Source of the DNA: a virus
Strand: one strand, 5' to 3'
DNA: 64,000 nucleotides
Virus record (IMG/VR): IMGVR_UViG_3300008262_000017
Span: 28,406 to 92,405 of that record
The notes beneath the pieces are model-generated. The model saw nothing but the letters and a program-made list of their open reading frames with translations, had not been told where the DNA came from and ran no database searches. Of the stretch, positions 37,917 to 54,118 are shown in pieces; position 1 is the stretch's first letter, and every line of letters begins with the position of its first letter. The position numbers and the translations under genes were made by a program.

Positions 37917-38930
37917 TTGAGTAATTTATTTAAAAAAACAGCCTGTTTTACTGACATTCATTTCGGATTGAAGTCAAACAGTCAAGTACACAACCAAGAC
38001 TGCAACGATTTTGTAGATTGGTACATTGCAGAAGCCAAGAAAGAAGGGTGCGATACAGGCATCTTTCTTGGCGACTGGCATCACAACCGCAACAGTTTGA
38101 ACATTACTACAATGGATCACAGCTTGAGGGCTTTGGAAAAATTAGGTGCTGCCTTTGATCAGTTCTTTTTCTTTCCTGGCAATCATGATTTGTACTACAA
38201 AGACAAACGTGATATTCACTCAGTAGAGTTTGGCAAGTATATTCCCGGCGTTACTATTGTACACAAGCCTATGACAATAGGTGATGTTACTATGTGCCCA
38301 TGGTTAGTAGGCGATGAGTGGAAAACTATCGGCAAGAAAGGTGGCAAATATATATTTGGTCACTTTGAACTGCCCAGCTTCTTTATGAATGCCATGGTGC
38401 AAATGCCGGATCATGGTGAAATTCAATTAGACAGCTTTAAAGGTTACGAACTAGGCTTTAGCGGACACTTTCACAAACGTCAAGTTAAACAGAACATGCA
38501 CTACATTGGCAATGCATTTCCCCATAACTATGCAGATGCATGGGATGATGACCGCGGCATGATGATATTAGAATGGGGCAAACAACCTGTTTACAAAACT
38601 TGGCTAGATGCTCCTAAGTTTAGAACTGTAAAGCTCAGCAAGTTGATCGACGAAGCTGATGATTTATTGTTGAGTAAGATGCATCTTCGTGTAGGACTTG
38701 ACATTGATATCAGTTACGAAGAAGCTAGCTTTATCAAAGAAAAGTTTATTGCCGACTACGACATTAGAGAACTTACACTGATTCCTGAAAAGAAAGAAGT
38801 TGAGATCAATACTACTATTGATATTCAAACTTTTGAATCAGTAGATCAAATTGTATCCAATCAATTGGTCAATATTGAAAGCGACACTTACGATAACAAA
38901 GTGTTGTTGAGCATTTATAACAGCCTATGA
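37917..38930 (+). CDS. gp47: Recombination endonuclease subunit (Mre11/SbcD-like)
   Basis: Metallophosphoesterase motifs TDIHFG, LGDWHH, GNHD, FGHFE, SGHFH. Confidence 0.92.
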   Translation: MSNLFKKTACFTDIHFGLKSNSQVHNQDCNDFVDWYIAEAKKEGCDTGIFLGDWHHNRNSLNITTMDHSLRALEKLGAAFDQFFFFPGNHDLYYKDKRDIHSVEFGKYIPGVTIVHKPMTIGDVTMCPWLVGDEWKTIGKKGGKYIFGHFELPSFFMNAMVQMPDHGEIQLDSFKGYELGFSGHFHKRQVKQNMHYIGNAFPHNYADAWDDDRGMMILEWGKQPVYKTWLDAPKFRTVKLSKLIDEADDLLLSKMHLRVGLDIDISYEEASFIKEKFIADYDIRELTLIPEKKEVEINTTIDIQTFESVDQIVSNQLVNIESDTYDNKVLLSIYNSL

Positions 38931-40708
38931 CTATAAAAATTAAAGAATTAACCGTTAAGAACTTTATGAGCGTGGGTAATCAAACCCAGGCTGTGGACTT
39001 TTGTAAAGAAAACTTAACATTAGTGTTAGGTGAAAACTTAGATCAAGGCGGAGATGACAGCGGCAGTCGCAACGGTACAGGTAAAACAACTATTGTCAAT
39101 GCCTTAAGCTTTGCATTGTTTGGCACTGCACTGACTAACATTAAAAAAGACAACCTTATTAATAAAATTAACAATAAGGGCATGTTGGTTACACTGAGTT
39201 TTGACAAAGACGGCAACAAATATAAGATCGAACGTGGTCGTAAGCCCACTGTTATGAAGTTTTATGTCAATGATCAAGAACAAGCTGCCAACGACAACGA
39301 TGACAGTCAAGGTGACATGCGTGAAACGCAAAAGGATATTCACGAATTGTTGGGCATGACACATGATATGTTCAAACATATTGTAGCCTTGAACACTTAT
39401 ACTGAACCGTTCTTGAGCATGAAAGCCAATGAACAGAGAGAAATCATTGAGCAGTTGTTGGGCATTACCTTGCTAAGTGAGAAAGCCGAAGCTCTCAAAG
39501 AACGAGTTAGAGAAACTAAAGAAGCAATCATACAAGAAACTTCAAACATCGAAGCAACTAAACGTAGCAATGACAAAATTCAAATCAGTATCGACAGTTT
39601 GATTACAAGGCAACGTGCTTGGAACAAACAACGAGATCTAGATTTAGAAAAGATTGCCGGCAGTATTGCAGAATTACAACAAGTTGACATTGAAAAAGAA
39701 TTAGAGCAACATGCTAAACTAAAAACATACGACGAGTTGGCTGCAAGAATTAAAAGTCTAAGCAAAGAAAAAGCAACTCTTGAAAATGCACTAGGGCAAG
39801 CTGATAGGTCTGTTGCAAAATATCAAAAAGAAGTTGAACAGCTTAAAGATAACAAGTGTCCTGCTTGTGAACAAGACTTGCACGATCACAAACACGACGA
39901 ATTAAAAGCTCGTGCTGACAAAAATTTAGAAGAATCAGGCGTATATCTTTCTAAAGTCACTCATGACTTGAGTAAAGTTGTAGGCGAGTTAGATAAAATA
40001 GGCGACATTAACGGACGCCCAAAGGTATATTATGAAACTCTCGAGGAAGCTCTACGGCATCAAAACAATTTGGCTACGCTTGAAAGTGCGTTGGTGGCTA
40101 AGGCGGGCGAACAGGATCCTTACCAAGAACAAATTGAAGAACTCCAACAAACTGCACTCCAAGATGTAAACTGGGATGCTGTTAATAATTTGAACACACT
40201 CAAAGACCATCAAGAGTTTTTGTTAAAATTGTTGACAAACAAAGACAGTTTTATTCGTAAAAAGATTATTGATCAGAACTTAGCTTACTTAAACAACAGG
40301 CTAACTTATTATCTTGACAAGATGGGCTTGCCTCATACTGTTACATTCTTAAACGACTTAACTGTTGAGATTATGCAGTTAGGTCAAGACTTAGACTTTG
40401 ACAACTTGTCACGTGGTGAACGCAACAGATTGATTTTAGGATTGAGCTGGGCATTCCGTGATGTATGGGAAAGTTTATATCAAAGTATCAACTTGTTGTT
40501 CATTGACGAATTAATCGACAACGGTTTAGATGCTAACGGTGTTGAAAATGCACTGAGTGTACTTAAGAAGATGGGCAGAGAACGCAAGAAAAACATTTAT
40601 CTAATCAGTCACAAGGATGAATTGATTGGGCGTGTTAACAATGTTCTCAAAGTTATTAAAGAAAATGGTTTTACCAGCTACGCTAATGATCTTGAAATTG
40701 AAGAATGA
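38927..40708 (+). CDS. gp46: Recombination ATPase subunit (Rad50/SbcC-like)
   Basis: Walker A NGTGKT, coiled coil with CPAC zinc hook, signature LSRGE, Walker B LFIDE, ISH. Confidence 0.93.
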   Translation: MTIKIKELTVKNFMSVGNQTQAVDFCKENLTLVLGENLDQGGDDSGSRNGTGKTTIVNALSFALFGTALTNIKKDNLINKINNKGMLVTLSFDKDGNKYKIERGRKPTVMKFYVNDQEQAANDNDDSQGDMRETQKDIHELLGMTHDMFKHIVALNTYTEPFLSMKANEQREIIEQLLGITLLSEKAEALKERVRETKEAIIQETSNIEATKRSNDKIQISIDSLITRQRAWNKQRDLDLEKIAGSIAELQQVDIEKELEQHAKLKTYDELAARIKSLSKEKATLENALGQADRSVAKYQKEVEQLKDNKCPACEQDLHDHKHDELKARADKNLEESGVYLSKVTHDLSKVVGELDKIGDINGRPKVYYETLEEALRHQNNLATLESALVAKAGEQDPYQEQIEELQQTALQDVNWDAVNNLNTLKDHQEFLLKLLTNKDSFIRKKIIDQNLAYLNNRLTYYLDKMGLPHTVTFLNDLTVEIMQLGQDLDFDNLSRGERNRLILGLSWAFRDVWESLYQSINLLFIDELIDNGLDANGVENALSVLKKMGRERKKNIYLISHKDELIGRVNNVLKVIKENGFTSYANDLEIEE

Positions 40709-40953
40709 GTACAAACGATAACCATCGTCAACTATTACAACTAGTTCACGAATACGTCAAGTTGAATCTTAGTTTAGAACTTAAACCTACACTAGACAAA
40801 ACTATTGAAGTTCGAAAAGTTCTTTCGGACATTAGACGTTGTGCTTCTACACGCCGTGAAGAAGTAATGGAAGTACAACGAGAAAGACGAGCATACTTAG
40901 ACACATTAAAAGGCAACTCAGATTTAACAGAGGCACAAGACCAAGACGACTAA
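40705..40953 (+). CDS. Small helical hypothetical protein
   Basis: ATGA overlap with the gp46 stop; 82 aa. Confidence 0.7.
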   Translation: MSTNDNHRQLLQLVHEYVKLNLSLELKPTLDKTIEVRKVLSDIRRCASTRREEVMEVQRERRAYLDTLKGNSDLTEAQDQDD

Positions 40954-40961
40954 CTAAGTGC

Positions 40962-41399
40962 ATGTCATGGTATTATCAAAACGCAATAGTTGAAACTCTT
41001 CCAGAAGAATGTATAGGTTTCGTCTATTGTATCACTAATAACATCACTGGTCGCAAATATATAGGCAAAAAATTAGCTAAATTCTCTAAAACCACTTATA
41101 AAACAGTAAAACTCAAAAACGGCAACAAGAAGAAAAAGAAGATTCGTTCTAAAATTGATTCTGATTGGCGTGAATACTATGGCTCAAGCGATCATTTAAC
41201 AAAAGATATAGAAACTCTAGGCGCAGACAATTTCACAAGAGAAATACTTTACTACTGCAACTCAAAGGCTGAATGCTCTTACATAGAGGCAAGAGAACAA
41301 TTTACAAGACGTGTTCTCGAAAGTGACGACTACTACAACGGACACATAGCTGTTCGTGTACACGGAAGTCATATCAAAGGCAAACAATTAAACGGTTAA
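40962..41399 (+). CDS. Small GIY-YIG family endonuclease (Seg-like catalytic domain only)
   Basis: IGFVYCITN..GRKYIGKK, WREYYGSS, FTREIL, YIEAREQ, YYNGHI. Confidence 0.85.
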   Translation: MSWYYQNAIVETLPEECIGFVYCITNNITGRKYIGKKLAKFSKTTYKTVKLKNGNKKKKKIRSKIDSDWREYYGSSDHLTKDIETLGADNFTREILYYCNSKAECSYIEAREQFTRRVLESDDYYNGHIAVRVHGSHIKGKQLNG

Positions 41400-41780
41400 A
41401 GCTCGCACAGGCTAATTTCGTGTGCCCAGCATTCAGACAACGGGTTTAACTACACCGGGACGGAAATCTCTTGCCGTTAAGAGTACTCAGCAACTATCCT
41501 TAACAGGACGACGACTAGATATGCCTTCATAGAACTAGTTTTGCTGTTTGAAGATCTTTAATTTAATAAGGCTAATGATGGGGAACTAACCATAACCCCA
41601 CGCTTTGCAAATGTGATAGTGTACATTTGCAAGCCGCCGTTGTAACAAGACAGAATGAGCAGGTACCGGACAACCGCCTGCGATACAATAATTCTAACAC
41701 TATGTGACTGTGCTACTCAGATAATGCAGTTTTTTCTTAGCCCGCTAGGGCTAAGTGTGACCGCTTAATCTAGATAATAC
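41400..41780 (+). ncRNA. Candidate large structured non-coding RNA
   Basis: ORF-free, GC-enriched stretch with about nine hairpins/stems and three loop-to-distal complementary segments (see findings); family not identified. Confidence 0.6.
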
Positions 41781-41890
41781 TTAATTCACTGCTTCGCTAT
41801 CGCTACGCAGCTTCTTTTAAAACATCGTTTAAAAAAAAAATTAGTTCGAGCTGACAAGCGAAGAACTGGATGTACGAAGTACATCTCTAA

Positions 41891-41896
41891 TAAATA
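41891..41896 (+). promoter_or_regulatory. gp55-type late promoter (TAAATA)
   Basis: aaTAAATA upstream of 41915. Confidence 0.6.
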
Positions 41897-41914
41897 ACAT
41901 ACATTGGAAGACCT

Positions 41915-42934
41915 ATGAAAGTAAGTGAAATTATCTTAGAAGCACCTCAAACTGGAACAAATGCCTTTTCACAGATGGCTGGTCAGTTAGGTGGCGGAAC
42001 ATCTAGTACAGGTGGTACAACTAAATCTACCTCTACTGGACAAACACATAAATCAAACCCTAATAATCCTAACAATGCTTCTCCTAAGAAGCCTGGATCT
42101 ACTAAGAAAACTGGCACTAAACTTAGTGCTGGACCTAAAGGTTTAGTTTCTAATGCAGGAGGAAAATCAACTTCTGTTAGTCCTAAAGATGCACTTAAAA
42201 CGGCTGCTCCTGATAAGGTTGCTGTAGCAGAAAAAGTATCTGGAGGAAAGTGGGAAAAGTTTAAAGCTACTAAACCTTTTAAGATGTTTGGATTAAAAAC
42301 TTTAGGGCCATTTCTTATTTGGTTAGACGACATGTCTAGTATTAACGAATTGTGGGATGCTGGAGCGTTTAATGATCACGGTGATAAAGCCGGAGAAGTT
42401 GTCCAACAGTTAAGAACTTACTATACTCAACTATTAATCACTAGAATGGGAACAATGTGGGTTGTATGGGGATCAGCTAGTTTTGTTACAGGTATGGCTG
42501 TTAGAGCTCTCGTAGCACTGATTCCTGGTCTAGGATGGCTGGCTAACTTAGCTGCGGTAGTAGCGCAAGGTGCGGTATACTTATTATTAAACAGTGAAGT
42601 TGTTCAAAAATATTTAACTTTTACTATATTAGAAAATCTAGCACCTGACTGGATGAGCAATTCAGCGTATGGTATTGCTAGAGTGTTTGGCGGAGTTGGC
42701 GGCTTAATAGGACCTTATATAACTAAACTAAAAGATAAATTTGCAAAAGAAGCCCCTGAAGTTGCAAAAGCTGTTCCTGGAGCAGCTGCCAATGTAGCAA
42801 AAGACGCAGCAAATGCTGTAAAAAATACAGGATCTACTGTTGCTAAAGACGGTGCAACCGCTGTAAAAAATATAGGATCTGCCCCAGCAGCCGAACCGTT
42901 AGGCGCTATGTCTGACCTAGCTAAAGATCTTTAA
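41915..42934 (+). CDS. Putative internal virion protein with hydrophobic helices
   Basis: N-terminal MKVSEIILE-A resembles a capsid-targeting/gp21 cleavage peptide; disordered basic N-half; hydrophobic segments at about aa 180-225. Confidence 0.55.
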   Translation: MKVSEIILEAPQTGTNAFSQMAGQLGGGTSSTGGTTKSTSTGQTHKSNPNNPNNASPKKPGSTKKTGTKLSAGPKGLVSNAGGKSTSVSPKDALKTAAPDKVAVAEKVSGGKWEKFKATKPFKMFGLKTLGPFLIWLDDMSSINELWDAGAFNDHGDKAGEVVQQLRTYYTQLLITRMGTMWVVWGSASFVTGMAVRALVALIPGLGWLANLAAVVAQGAVYLLLNSEVVQKYLTFTILENLAPDWMSNSAYGIARVFGGVGGLIGPYITKLKDKFAKEAPEVAKAVPGAAANVAKDAANAVKNTGSTVAKDGATAVKNIGSAPAAEPLGAMSDLAKDL

Positions 42935-53314: not shown

Positions 53315-53398
53315 CATTGTCTAAAATGAAATCGCGCAAAGCGATGTTATGCAGTAACCCACTGCGTAGACCTAGAACGTCACTTAAAGGAGAAACAA

Positions 53399-54118
53399 AT
53401 GGGACGTCCATTACATAAAAAATATTTTGGTAACCGTAACACAGGTTCCACAAGCACAGAAGCTGATAATGGTATCGGCGGACAAGGCGTAGCAAGCGTA
53501 ACAATTGGTGGAGTATGGGCAGGATTCACAGCTCTTACGACTACAGTTACATTTACTGCACCAGACTTGCCAGGCGGCGTATTAGCAACAGGTACAGCAG
53601 TTATTGACGGCGGTGGCGCAGTTACTGGTGTTCTTATGACAGAAAACGGTTCTGGTTATACATCAGCACCTACAGTGACTATTGCTGACAGCGACGGCGG
53701 CGCAGAAACAACAGGCACAGCAACAGCAGTATTAACTGTTGATACTGGTGGTGTACCAGGCAGCACAACTAATCAAGAAAATGCTATCACAATGACTGGT
53801 CGTATTGTTGCAGGTGCAACTGTAGCACTTGATGTTATTAAACAAACTGGCTCACGTCGTTATCTAGCAACTGATGGTACAAACATTGGAGTTGTTGAAT
53901 TAGTAGGCGATGCAGTTGACGCAGCCGGCGAAGCAAACATTATTGCTACTGACAGTGCAAGCGGAACATATTATGTTACTAAAATAACTGCACATAGAGC
54001 ATTAGTTGTTCCAGGCACTGGTACACAATTTCCGTTAGTTGGCGGAAATCCTCAATCTATACCATGGGTACTAGATACTGCTGTTCTAAATACATCTGTT
54101 AAGATTTCTAATGCTTAA
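53399..54118 (+). CDS. Virion structural protein (possible head decoration or fibre)
   Basis: MGRPLHKKYFG start; G/T-rich with GSGYTSAPTVTI repeat; strong AAGGAG SD; follows gp23. Confidence 0.6.
   Translation: MGRPLHKKYFGNRNTGSTSTEADNGIGGQGVASVTIGGVWAGFTALTTTVTFTAPDLPGGVLATGTAVIDGGGAVTGVLMTENGSGYTSAPTVTIADSDGGAETTGTATAVLTVDTGGVPGSTTNQENAITMTGRIVAGATVALDVIKQTGSRRYLATDGTNIGVVELVGDAVDAAGEANIIATDSASGTYYVTKITAHRALVVPGTGTQFPLVGGNPQSIPWVLDTAVLNTSVKISNA

What the first reader, a model, noticed from the sequence alone, without database searches (positions are those of the whole stretch)
40962..41780. Minimal GIY-YIG nuclease followed immediately by a ~380-nt multi-pseudoknot candidate ncRNA
Seen in sequence: right after the nuclease stop (41399) is an ORF-free, GC-enriched block in an otherwise tightly packed genome. 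Stems: GCACA/TGTGC (41405-41425); CTCTT/AAGAG (41468-41483); CAGCAA/TTGCTG (41488-41546), enclosing TCCT/AGGA and ACTAG/CTAGT; TGGGG/CCCCA (41579-41600); a perfect 10-bp TTGCAAATGT/ACATTTGCAA (41605-41632); GCAGG/CCTGC with inner CGG-ACAA-CCG (41659-41681); CTTAGCCC/GGGCTAAG (41736-41755). Three hairpin loops have distal complements: CCGTT (41474-78) with GACGG (41459-63), GCCTT (41523-27) with AAGGC (41568-72), and ATAGTGT (41616-22) with ACACTAT (41697-703). Established: large ornate RNAs (GOLLD, ROOL) occur in phages, and HEARO/omegaRNAs partner IscB nucleases. Homing GIY-YIG enzymes such as I-TevI carry a separate C-terminal DNA-binding domain; this 145-aa protein lacks one but has a very basic insert (KLKNGNKKKKKIRSK). 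Inference: an ornate RNA, possibly co-transcribed with the nuclease and forming an RNP, perhaps RNA-directed. The adjacency could also be coincidental.
Basis: partly seen in the sequence, partly recalled or inferred. Interest (0 to 1): 0.85.

Follow-up and report, generated by a model that had tools for sequence, protein, structure and literature searches.

The report
Full-length Polynucleobacter-1 twin-box phage RNA
The gene-free stretch behind a small nuclease gene of this giant freshwater T4-like phage encodes a real, knotted non-coding RNA of about 490 bases. Its first third is the orphan motif Polynucleobacter-1 catalogued in 2010, the nuclease is a neighbour rather than a partner, and the RNA carries one 7-letter word twice for a reader still unknown.

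Summary
Bases 41400-41885 (+) encode a structured RNA. Bases 41400-41549 match Rfam RF01718 (Polynucleobacter-1) at 87.9 bits against a cut-off of 37. The uncatalogued 3' part is conserved in over 100 related phage contigs and covaries strongly: 83% of cells paired against about 41% for slid controls.

Of its three pseudoknots, one is strongly supported (41616-22 with 41697-703), one is conserved without covariation, and one fails. A further pseudoknot was found (41639-43 with 41670-74).

The nuclease-RNP reading is not supported:
- The same two-domain RNA lies in Polynucleobacter genomic islands that hold no such nuclease.
- One phage has a PD-(D/E)XK nuclease in the same slot.
- Homologues of the nuclease are widespread without the RNA.
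- Weinberg et al. (2010) already noted the gene neighbourhood and part of the tail.

The strangest feature is a pair of "twin boxes". The 7-mer at 41719-25 equals the 7-mer at 41772-78 in 90 of 90 diverse RNAs, through at least 29 joint changes, with no partner inside the RNA. Function is unknown.

This scan has met the same RNA before on other DNA (281 notes).

The parts
40962..41399 (+). GIY-YIG domain-only nuclease gene (145 aa), the fixed upstream neighbour of the RNA
   Evidence: Pfam SegE_GIY-YIG PF19835, E 7e-33, whole profile 1-123. phrog_447. 37% identical to P-SSM2 PSSM2_218.
41400..41549 (+). 5' domain = Rfam RF01718 Polynucleobacter-1, holding P1 (41405-09/41421-25), P3 (41468-72/41479-83), P4 (41488-93/41541-46) and P4b (41513-18/41535-40)
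   Evidence: cmscan 87.9 bits against cut-off 37, model 1-141. Helices 95-100% paired with changes on both sides.
41579..41600 (+). Variable hairpin Px (UGGGG/CCCCA)
   Evidence: Present in all aligned RNAs with differing stems. Only 63% paired in the blind alignment because its length varies.
41605..41632 (+). 10-bp hairpin Py, whose loop forms pseudoknot PK1
   Evidence: 90% paired; all 10 pairs change on both sides.
41616..41703 (+). Pseudoknot PK1: 41616-41622 pairs with 41697-41703
   Evidence: 99% paired; 6 of 7 pairs change on both sides. Partner-specific: 7.1 against 5.7 for swapped partners. Also marked as 'tailpknot' in the 2010 alignment.
41639..41674 (+). Pseudoknot PK2: GUUGU 41639-41643 pairs with ACAAC 41670-41674, which lies in the loop of Pg
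   Evidence: 97.7% paired; UA to CG in 16 sequences and GC to AU in 11.
41653..41694 (+). Hairpin Pg (41659-63/41677-81) with near-invariant loop GGUACCGG..ACCGCC, enclosed by short helix 41653-56/41691-94
   Evidence: Pg inner pairs 100% paired with covariation. Enclosing helix complete in 45 of 87 against 15 for swapped partners. The loop motif is kept in phage variant B and in bacterial copies.
41719..41725 (+). Twin box 1 (AGAUAAU), preceded by invariant ACUC, in the loop of a variable hairpin
   Evidence: Identical to box 2 in 90 of 90 RNAs; 8 words; at least 29 word changes on the tree.
41736..41755 (+). 8-bp hairpin P9 between the two boxes
   Evidence: Perfect 8 bp in 83 of 89. Present in all variants.
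41772..41778 (+). Twin box 2 (AGAUAAU), preceded by invariant AUCU
   Evidence: As for box 1. No other column of the RNA shares information with the box columns.
41789..41810 (+). Small hairpin (CUGC...GCAG; in most relatives a tight UGC-UUCG-CA type)
   Evidence: Seen in alignments. Not formally tested.
41844..41885 (+). Two terminal hairpins: T1 (41844-66, core GAGC-loop-GCGAA) and T2 (41869-85). Likely 3' end of the RNA.
   Evidence: T1 core 97.7% and T2 99.7% paired, with every pair changing on both sides. Conserved in bacterial copies, where T2 plus a T-rich tail scores as terminator-like.
41888..41934 (+). T4-late-promoter-like TAATAAATA and the start of the next gene (ATG 41915). Not part of the RNA.
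   Evidence: Conserved TAAATA after T2 wherever a + strand gene follows. Assignment as a late promoter rests on my knowledge of T4 and is an inference.

Best explanation
**What it is.** The block is the full-length form of the Polynucleobacter-1 RNA. It is a free-standing structured RNA module of about 430-490 nt carried once per genome by giant freshwater T4-like phages and by small integrase-bearing islands of Polynucleobacter.

**Relation to the nuclease.** In this phage lineage the RNA sits at the end of the gp47-gp46-GIY-YIG gene string. It is most simply made by read-through from that string and ends at hairpins T1/T2. The nuclease is a fixed syntenic neighbour, not a guide-using partner.

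**Shown here.**
- Family membership.
- The fold: about 14 helices and at least two pseudoknots.
- Strand: conserved G-U pairs exist only on the + strand.
- Independence from the nuclease.
- The twin boxes.

**Inferred, about 35%.** The folded body acts as a scaffold that displays two identical single-stranded 7-nt words on either side of hairpin P9. The words are offered to one external reader, either a two-fold factor or one nucleic-acid strand read twice, that differs between mobile elements. What the RNA does for the element is not known; host take-over, replication and counter-defence are all open.
For: **Family.** RF01718 at 87.9 bits.

**Conservation.** The whole block is conserved on the + strand in the phage loci.

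**Structure.** 83.2% of cells paired against 39-42% when partners are slid. Covariation score 0.372 against 0.07-0.10. None of 500 shuffles reached the observed values.

**Strand.** G-U pairs are conserved, for example 42 of 43 at one P4b pair.

**Copy number.** One copy in complete genomes G192 and G195.

**RNA-first sample of IMG/VR.** 74 RNA loci were found, of which 70 hold enough upstream DNA to judge. Of those, 64 have the nuclease within 120 nt, 3 have an insert, and 3 have none in the DNA held.

**Independence from the nuclease.**
- 12 of 13 bacterial loci carry the same two-domain RNA between a divergent DUF6641 gene and a 188-aa tyrosine recombinase gene.
- Four such genomes hold no SegE-type GIY-YIG anywhere.
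- RF01718 scored over its cut-off in only 16 of 141 Polynucleobacter genomes.
- L142 has a PDDEXK_15 nuclease in the slot.
- 505 phage records hold the nuclease family. The four best-matching records searched whole show no RF01718, and the P-SSM2 locus shows no twin box or Pg motif.

**Twin boxes.**
- Identical in 90 of 90 RNAs; at least 29 joint changes.
- The only 3 of 35,778 variable column pairs that are identical in every sequence are box positions.
- No third covarying column.
- Also identical in 9 of 12 bacterial copies, with other words, and in variant B, which lacks RF01718.
Against: - No transcript ends or expression level are known. The RNA-library contigs that bridge ORF and RNA come from relatives and could be DNA carry-over.
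- No reader was found. There is no covarying third copy or complement in four phage genomes, though that search had little power.
- In three contexts the RNA does sit beside a gene for a DNA-cutting or DNA-joining enzyme (GIY-YIG, PD-(D/E)XK, tyrosine recombinase). A loose functional link to DNA transactions is therefore not excluded.
- The scaffold-and-reader mechanism is inference only.
Confidence: 0.7

Rival explanations
1. Nuclease RNP. The RNA binds the GIY-YIG protein, supplies the missing DNA-binding function and perhaps directs cleavage through base pairing.
For: - The RNA is immediately adjacent and on the same strand in 64 of 70 RNA-first loci.
- The protein is domain-only, 145 aa, with a Lys-rich insert.
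- Another small nuclease occupies the same slot in L142.
- The twin boxes look like short programmable words.
Against: - The RNA is present in four bacterial genomes that hold no such nuclease and in L184.
- The nuclease family is common, and the homologue-bearing cultured phages checked lack the RNA: four records searched whole, plus the P-SSM2 locus.
- The basic insert is present in the RNA-less P-SSM2 homologue.
- Proteins 93-94% identical go with different words, and the same word goes with proteins only 65-77% identical.
- 0.8-1.2 kb inserts separate gene and RNA in several phages.
Confidence: 0.05
2. Replication element of mobile DNA. The folded transcript would act in cis like ColE1 RNA II. 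One box in the RNA anneals to the template DNA at the other, identical box to seed a lasting RNA-DNA hybrid that primes DNA synthesis. The terminal hairpins would serve priming on the displaced strand.
For: - One copy per genome.
- Shared by phages and islands that have no protein gene in common.
- Strict identity of two words is what annealing of a strand made at one site to the other site would demand.
- Strictly Watson-Crick terminal hairpins are conserved in both lineages.
- RNA-primed replicons with long folded pre-primers exist: ColE1 and the MRB plasmids (PMC11012335, PMC6380287).
- The detail that an upstream G-run of RNA II pairs with template DNA near the origin comes from my memory of Masukata & Tomizawa 1990 and was not re-read.
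Against: - The locus is 4-10 kb from the nearest strand-bias switch, not at a skew extremum.
- The A-rich linker is no richer in purine runs than the RNA body.
- There is no match in 72,556 plasmids.
- The islands carry an integrase and show no sign of autonomous replication.
- Four fixed mismatching positions flank the boxes.
Confidence: 0.15
3. 3' untranslated end of the gp47-gp46-nuclease message. The fold would only protect the mRNA from 3' exonucleases, or terminate or regulate transcription before the late genes.
For: - It starts at the stop codon and ends in two stable hairpins before a late-promoter-like box.
- No sigma-70-like promoter lies on the + strand between gene and RNA.
- T2 scores as terminator-like in the bacterial copy.
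Against: - About 14 helices, at least two covarying pseudoknots, many invariant unpaired bases and the twin boxes are far more than end protection needs.
- The same RNA stands alone, next to a divergently transcribed gene, in bacteria.
- It follows unrelated genes in L142, L184 and the loci with the 338-aa insert.
Confidence: 0.08
4. The adjacency reflects homing. Small free-standing endonuclease genes (GIY-YIG, PD-(D/E)XK) have settled beside a highly conserved RNA gene that serves as their landing or cleavage site, with no role in the RNA's function.
For: - Two unrelated nuclease families occupy the same slot.
- PADLOC lists the protein under 'homing endonuclease', and PHROGs lists homing endonucleases as secondary hits.
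- Homing enzymes favour conserved targets (general knowledge of the Seg/Mob genes of T4).
Against: - The GIY-YIG gene is present in nearly every relative at the same place and diverges along with gp46. It is a single-copy, near-universal family of Kyanoviridae-like phages. That is not the patchy pattern of homing genes.
- It lacks the DNA-binding domain of I-TevI-type enzymes.
Confidence: 0.1

Closest known systems
Polynucleobacter-1 RNA motif (Rfam RF01718; Weinberg et al. 2010, Genome Biol 11:R31, PMC2864571)
   Same: Bases 41400-41549 match the whole model at 87.9 bits. The RNA lies downstream of a PSSM2_218-like gene, as the paper reports. The paper's raw alignment already carries a 'tail' with a 7-bp pseudoknot that corresponds to PK1. 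The Polynucleobacter copy has the same 3' domain.
   Different: The Rfam model stops at 141 nt. The pieces that are new here, with covariation statistics, are:
- the remaining roughly 290-340 nt (PK2, Pg, twin boxes, P9, T1/T2);
- the identification of the neighbouring gene as a SegE-type GIY-YIG;
- the hosts (roughly 350-kb T4-like phages, and DUF6641-integrase islands).

In 2010 no phage carrier was known.
HEARO / omega RNA with IscB (RNA-guided nuclease)
   Same: A large structured RNA next to a small nuclease gene in mobile DNA.
   Different: There is no Rfam match. There is no long variable guide segment. RNA and nuclease occur without each other. The nuclease fold is GIY-YIG, not RuvC/HNH.
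ColE1 RNA II (and MRB plasmid RNA II), the folded pre-primer of replication
   Same: An RNA of about 500 nt with an obligatory fold, one per replicon, needing no element-encoded protein partner. Identity of two words would suit RNA-to-DNA annealing.
   Different: No sequence or Rfam relation. Not found on plasmids. No antisense partner was looked for. No origin evidence.
GOLLD and ROOL (large ornate RNAs of phages and prophages)
   Same: Size class, many pseudoknots and invariant unpaired bases, carried by phages, function unknown.
   Different: No match to either model. Different architecture. Not next to tRNA genes here; the window has no tRNA genes.
I-TevI / T4 Seg free-standing GIY-YIG homing endonucleases
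   Same: GIY-YIG catalytic domain in a T4-like phage. Pfam names the domain after SegE.
   Different: 145 aa with no C-terminal DNA-binding domain. Fixed, single-copy and syntenic rather than sporadic.
nutL/nutR boxB sites of lambdoid phages (from my own knowledge)
   Same: Two copies of a short RNA word, the same within one phage and different between phages, read by one phage-specific factor.
   Different: The nut sites lie in two separate operons and are hairpins read by the N protein. Here the words lie 49-56 nt apart within one RNA, and no reader is known.

Membership tests
Polynucleobacter-1 RNA (RF01718) | Covariance-model score at or above the curated gathering score (37 bits) over the whole model | tested here: met
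   87.9 bits, model 1-141, E 2e-17 to 2e-19
Polynucleobacter-1 RNA (RF01718) | Model helices kept by compensatory changes in relatives | tested here: met
   P1 100%, P4 95% and P4b 97% paired, with changes on both sides
Polynucleobacter-1 RNA (RF01718) | Lies downstream of a GOS11034 / PSSM2_218-like gene (2010 description) | tested here: met
   The upstream gene is 37% identical to PSSM2_218, E 1e-21
Polynucleobacter-1 RNA (RF01718) | 'Tail' with pseudoknot, as in the 2010 raw alignment | tested here: met
   PK1 is 99% paired; the tail and 'tailpknot' lines are in the supplement
GIY-YIG nuclease, SegE-type domain (PF19835) | Profile match over the curated cut-off, covering the domain | tested here: met
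   113.9 bits against cut-off 25, profile 1-123 of 123. GFVY...KYIG is visible in the sequence.
Homing endonuclease of the I-TevI / Seg kind | Separate DNA-binding domain joined to the catalytic domain | tested here: not met
   145 aa, the domain only; no second Pfam domain
Homing endonuclease of the I-TevI / Seg kind | Sporadic presence among close relatives | tested here: not met
   Present at the same place in nearly all related contigs. One record-wide copy in 505 phage records.
RNA-guided nuclease system (HEARO/IscB-like) | RNA and nuclease always occur together | tested here: not met
   RNA without the nuclease; nuclease without the RNA
RNA-guided nuclease system (HEARO/IscB-like) | Hypervariable single-stranded guide next to a conserved scaffold | tested here: not met
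   The variable parts are paired stems. Only the two 7-mers vary while unpaired.
ColE1-type primer RNA | Persistent RNA-DNA hybrid at an origin, cut by RNase H | not testable with these tools
   Needs wet-lab mapping. The skew profile gives no support.
ColE1-type primer RNA | Carried by autonomously replicating plasmids | tested here: not met
   No blastn match in PLSDB
GOLLD / ROOL / OLE / RNase P / group I intron / tmRNA | Rfam model match | tested here: not met
   No match up to E 10 in 41300-41950 other than RF01718. ARAGORN finds nothing.

The most novel reading that the evidence does not exclude
The twin boxes are a short programmable address read by base pairing. The folded RNA would hold two identical 7-nt words so that they anneal to nucleic acid, either the element's own DNA at the sister box or two copies of a target. 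That would seed an R-loop or bring two DNA sites together for replication priming, or for the DNA-cutting and DNA-joining enzymes encoded beside it (GIY-YIG, PD-(D/E)XK, tyrosine recombinase). This would be a new kind of RNA-addressed DNA transaction in phages and islands.
Probability: 0.08. Interest if true: 0.9.

Novelty: new member of a known kind. Interest (0 to 1): 0.55.

Why it matters
Polynucleobacter-1 has been an orphan motif since 2010. This work shows four things:
- The catalogued 141 nt are only the first third of an RNA of about 450-490 nt, with at least two pseudoknots.
- Its real carriers are roughly 350-kb freshwater phages and small integrase islands.
- The nuclease next to it is not its partner.
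- It holds two 7-nt words kept identical through dozens of changes.

That last pattern is not explained by any intramolecular pairing. It points to an unknown reader that differs from element to element.

A cultured carrier exists: Polynucleobacter QLW-P1DMWA-1. The puzzle is therefore open to experiment. The Rfam model could also be extended.

Tried and rejected
1. **Thermodynamic test.** MFE z-scores were not significant on either strand.
2. **Rfam on the 3' part.** Nothing up to E 10. No tRNA or tmRNA.
3. **blastn against cultured collections.** Neither the phage RNA nor the bacterial RNA matched cultured phages or plasmids.
4. **Third copy or complement of the box word.**
   - Searched in four phage genomes, one of them complete.
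   - Word counts, the extended context A-YYY-word, and aligned-site comparison all gave nothing consistent.
   - Only 8-17 kb of any two genomes align, so the test is weak.
5. **Intramolecular partner of the boxes.** Mutual information shows none.
6. **Origin signal.** The cumulative GC, AT and purine skew extrema do not fall on the RNA. The polypurine idea for the linker failed: its purine runs are no longer than those in the RNA body.
7. **A protein partner shared by phage and island.** DUF6641 is absent from three complete phages. GIY-YIG is absent from the islands.
8. **Defence context.** No PADLOC system around the island copy. The ORFs inserted between nuclease and RNA have no Pfam family.
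9. **Sequencing runs.**
   - Only small shares of words were found.
   - The contigs laid come from relatives, mostly under 90% alike.
   - The flanks 40700-40915 and 41780-42300 had no cover. That says nothing, because those flanks are poorly conserved.
10. **Literature.** One paper names the motif. I did not find the ColE1 detail on the -265/-20 pairing in the library.
11. **Alternative readings of the boxes.** I considered them as a -10-like element, stop/start codons, GNRA-like loops, a palindrome for dimerisation, and recombinase cores. Each fails in some variants or in the bacterial words.

Full report
**What is there**

The window is part of a 92-kb record, estimated 25% complete, of an uncultured T4-like phage. 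It carries:
- gp47-like and gp46-like genes at 37917-40708;
- a small ORF;
- a 145-aa GIY-YIG gene at 40962-41399;
- no ORF above 42 aa until the ATG at 41915;
- converging baseplate genes beyond that.

Complete relatives measure 345-355 kb. GC rises to 0.41-0.45 in the gap.

**Known part**

cmscan places Rfam RF01718 (Polynucleobacter-1) at 41400-41549 on the + strand, with 87.9 bits against a cut-off of 37 and the whole model matched. Nothing else in Rfam matches 41300-41950 up to E 10.

The only paper that names the motif is Weinberg et al. 2010. Its supplement makes three relevant points:
- Most copies lie downstream of genes like PSSM2_218 of cyanophage P-SSM2.
- No copy was then known in a purified phage.
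- The raw alignment holds a 'tail' with a 7-bp pseudoknot.

PSSM2_218 is a 145-aa homologue of the window's nuclease, 37% identical with E 1e-21. The gene neighbourhood was therefore already on record, though the gene was not recognised as a GIY-YIG.

**The whole element**

- Eighty related contigs were found through the protein.
- 74 more were found through an RNA pattern alone.
- Together they show that the entire block from the stop codon to about 41885 is conserved, always on the nuclease's strand.

RF01718 occurs exactly once in 37 of 46 contigs, starting at the first base after the stop codon.

I tested the fold on a structure-blind alignment of 43 RNAs (A1), with these results:

| Measure | Observed | Control |
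|---|---|---|
| Cells forming pairs | 83.2% | 39-42% with partners slid |
| Covariation score | 0.372 | 0.07-0.10 with partners slid |
| Shuffles reaching the observed value | 0 of 500 | |

P1, P4, P4b, the 10-bp hairpin, Pg and T2 are 90-100% paired, with changes on both sides.

- **PK1** (41616-22 with 41697-703) is 99% paired and partner-specific.
- **PK2** is a new pseudoknot, 41639-43 with 41670-74, and is 97.7% paired.

Conserved G-U pairs fix the structure to the + strand RNA.

Two terminal hairpins, T1 (41844-66) and T2 (41869-85), covary at every pair. They recur in bacterial copies, where T2 with its T-rich tail looks like a terminator. The RNA is therefore about 490 nt, not 380.

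One phage subclade, which includes the complete 347-kb genome G040, lacks any RF01718 signal. It keeps Pg, P9, the boxes, T1 and T2. The uncatalogued 3' part is thus the more widely kept core.

**Twin boxes**

The 7-mer at 41719-25 (after an invariant ACUC) equals the 7-mer at 41772-78 (after an invariant AUCU) in 90 of 90 RNAs that are under 95% identical to one another. Eight words occur.

- On a tree built without these columns the word changes at least 29 times, always in both boxes.
- Of 35,778 pairs of variable columns, only three are identical in every sequence. All three are box positions.
- No other column of the RNA shares information with the boxes.
- Likeness extends weakly to two bases on either side.
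- The four fixed differences between the two segments (CUC...G against UCU...A) are all transitions.

Bacterial copies use other words (AGCGAAA, AGAGAAA, ATCAAAA, AACAAAA). The boxes are identical in 9 of 12 of them.

I saw the repeat before consulting earlier notes. Those notes describe the same 'twin box' on other genomes.

**Is the nuclease a partner?**

In the RNA-first sample, 64 of 70 informative loci have the GIY-YIG gene within 120 nt upstream. There are exceptions among the phages:
- L142 has a PDDEXK_15 nuclease in the slot.
- L184 is another phage type, with an amidoligase-like gene upstream.
- Several phages carry a 338-aa SGNH-like ORF between the nuclease gene and the RNA.

The same two-domain RNA also lies in Polynucleobacter and other Burkholderiaceae genomes. 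There it always sits between a divergent DUF6641 gene and a 188-aa tyrosine recombinase gene.
- Only 16 of 141 genomes of the genus hold it, in one or two copies.
- Four such genomes hold no SegE-type GIY-YIG at all.
- The complete phages hold no DUF6641.

The converse also holds:
- The nuclease family occurs in 505 cultured-phage records.
- The closest of these lack the RNA.
- The Lys-rich insert has a basic counterpart in P-SSM2.
- The box word does not track the protein.

**Mechanism**

What is shown is an autonomous, folded, single-copy RNA of mobile elements. In phages it is probably transcribed by read-through. No + strand promoter-like site lies between gene and RNA, and contigs from RNA libraries of relatives bridge the ORF and the 5' domain (weak evidence).

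I infer, at roughly one in three, that the body is a scaffold offering two identical words to one external, element-specific reader.

A ColE1-like priming role would explain the identity of the words and the lack of a shared protein. It has no positive support from skew, plasmids or linker composition. I give it about 15%.

**Verdict**

This is a real RNA and a member of a known orphan family, whose published description is incomplete. The RNP or guide reading is unlikely. The twin boxes remain an unexplained and testable oddity.

Noticed in passing
window 53330-53401 (+): A second Rfam match in the window: freshwater-2 RNA (RF02980), 55.9 bits against a cut-off of 49.9.
   Followed up: no
L142 3963-4484 (+): In one related phage the GIY-YIG gene is replaced, in the same slot between gp46 and the RNA, by a 173-aa PDDEXK_15 (PF24608) endonuclease gene that ends 9 nt before the RNA.
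   Followed up: partly
L084 3306-4322, L033 3440-4453, L028 536-1606, L156 616-1161: A 338-aa protein family with no Pfam match, carrying an SGNH-like GCSISHG motif and a D..HPGP motif, is inserted between the nuclease gene and the RNA in several phages. L033 and L084 are 48% identical.
   Followed up: partly
L184 3911-4304 and 5169-5240: A 32-kb viral contig that carries the RNA behind an amidoligase-like gene also encodes a permuted (alpha-type) tmRNA and a tRNA.
   Followed up: no
L219-L230 (Polynucleobacter genomes): A conserved three-part module: DUF6641 gene (divergent), the RNA, then a 188-aa catalytic-domain-only tyrosine recombinase gene. tRNA-Phe or tRNA-Met lies about 9 kb away in six of the twelve loci. 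One strain (G047) has two full copies 18 kb apart.
   Followed up: partly
window 41888-41896: TAATAAATA directly after hairpin T2 and 19 nt before the ATG at 41915. It looks like a T4-type late promoter and is conserved wherever a + strand gene follows the RNA.
   Followed up: no
phage records: The 145-aa GIY-YIG domain-only family is annotated 'NAD synthetase' in many GenBank/RefSeq cyanophage records and in phrog_447. Pfam shows a SegE-type GIY-YIG domain, so the name looks like a propagated mis-annotation.
   Followed up: partly
L022 and L092: Two contigs carry RNAs with an internal deletion of the middle part (profile positions about 207-324 and 266-333), while both ends are kept.
   Followed up: no
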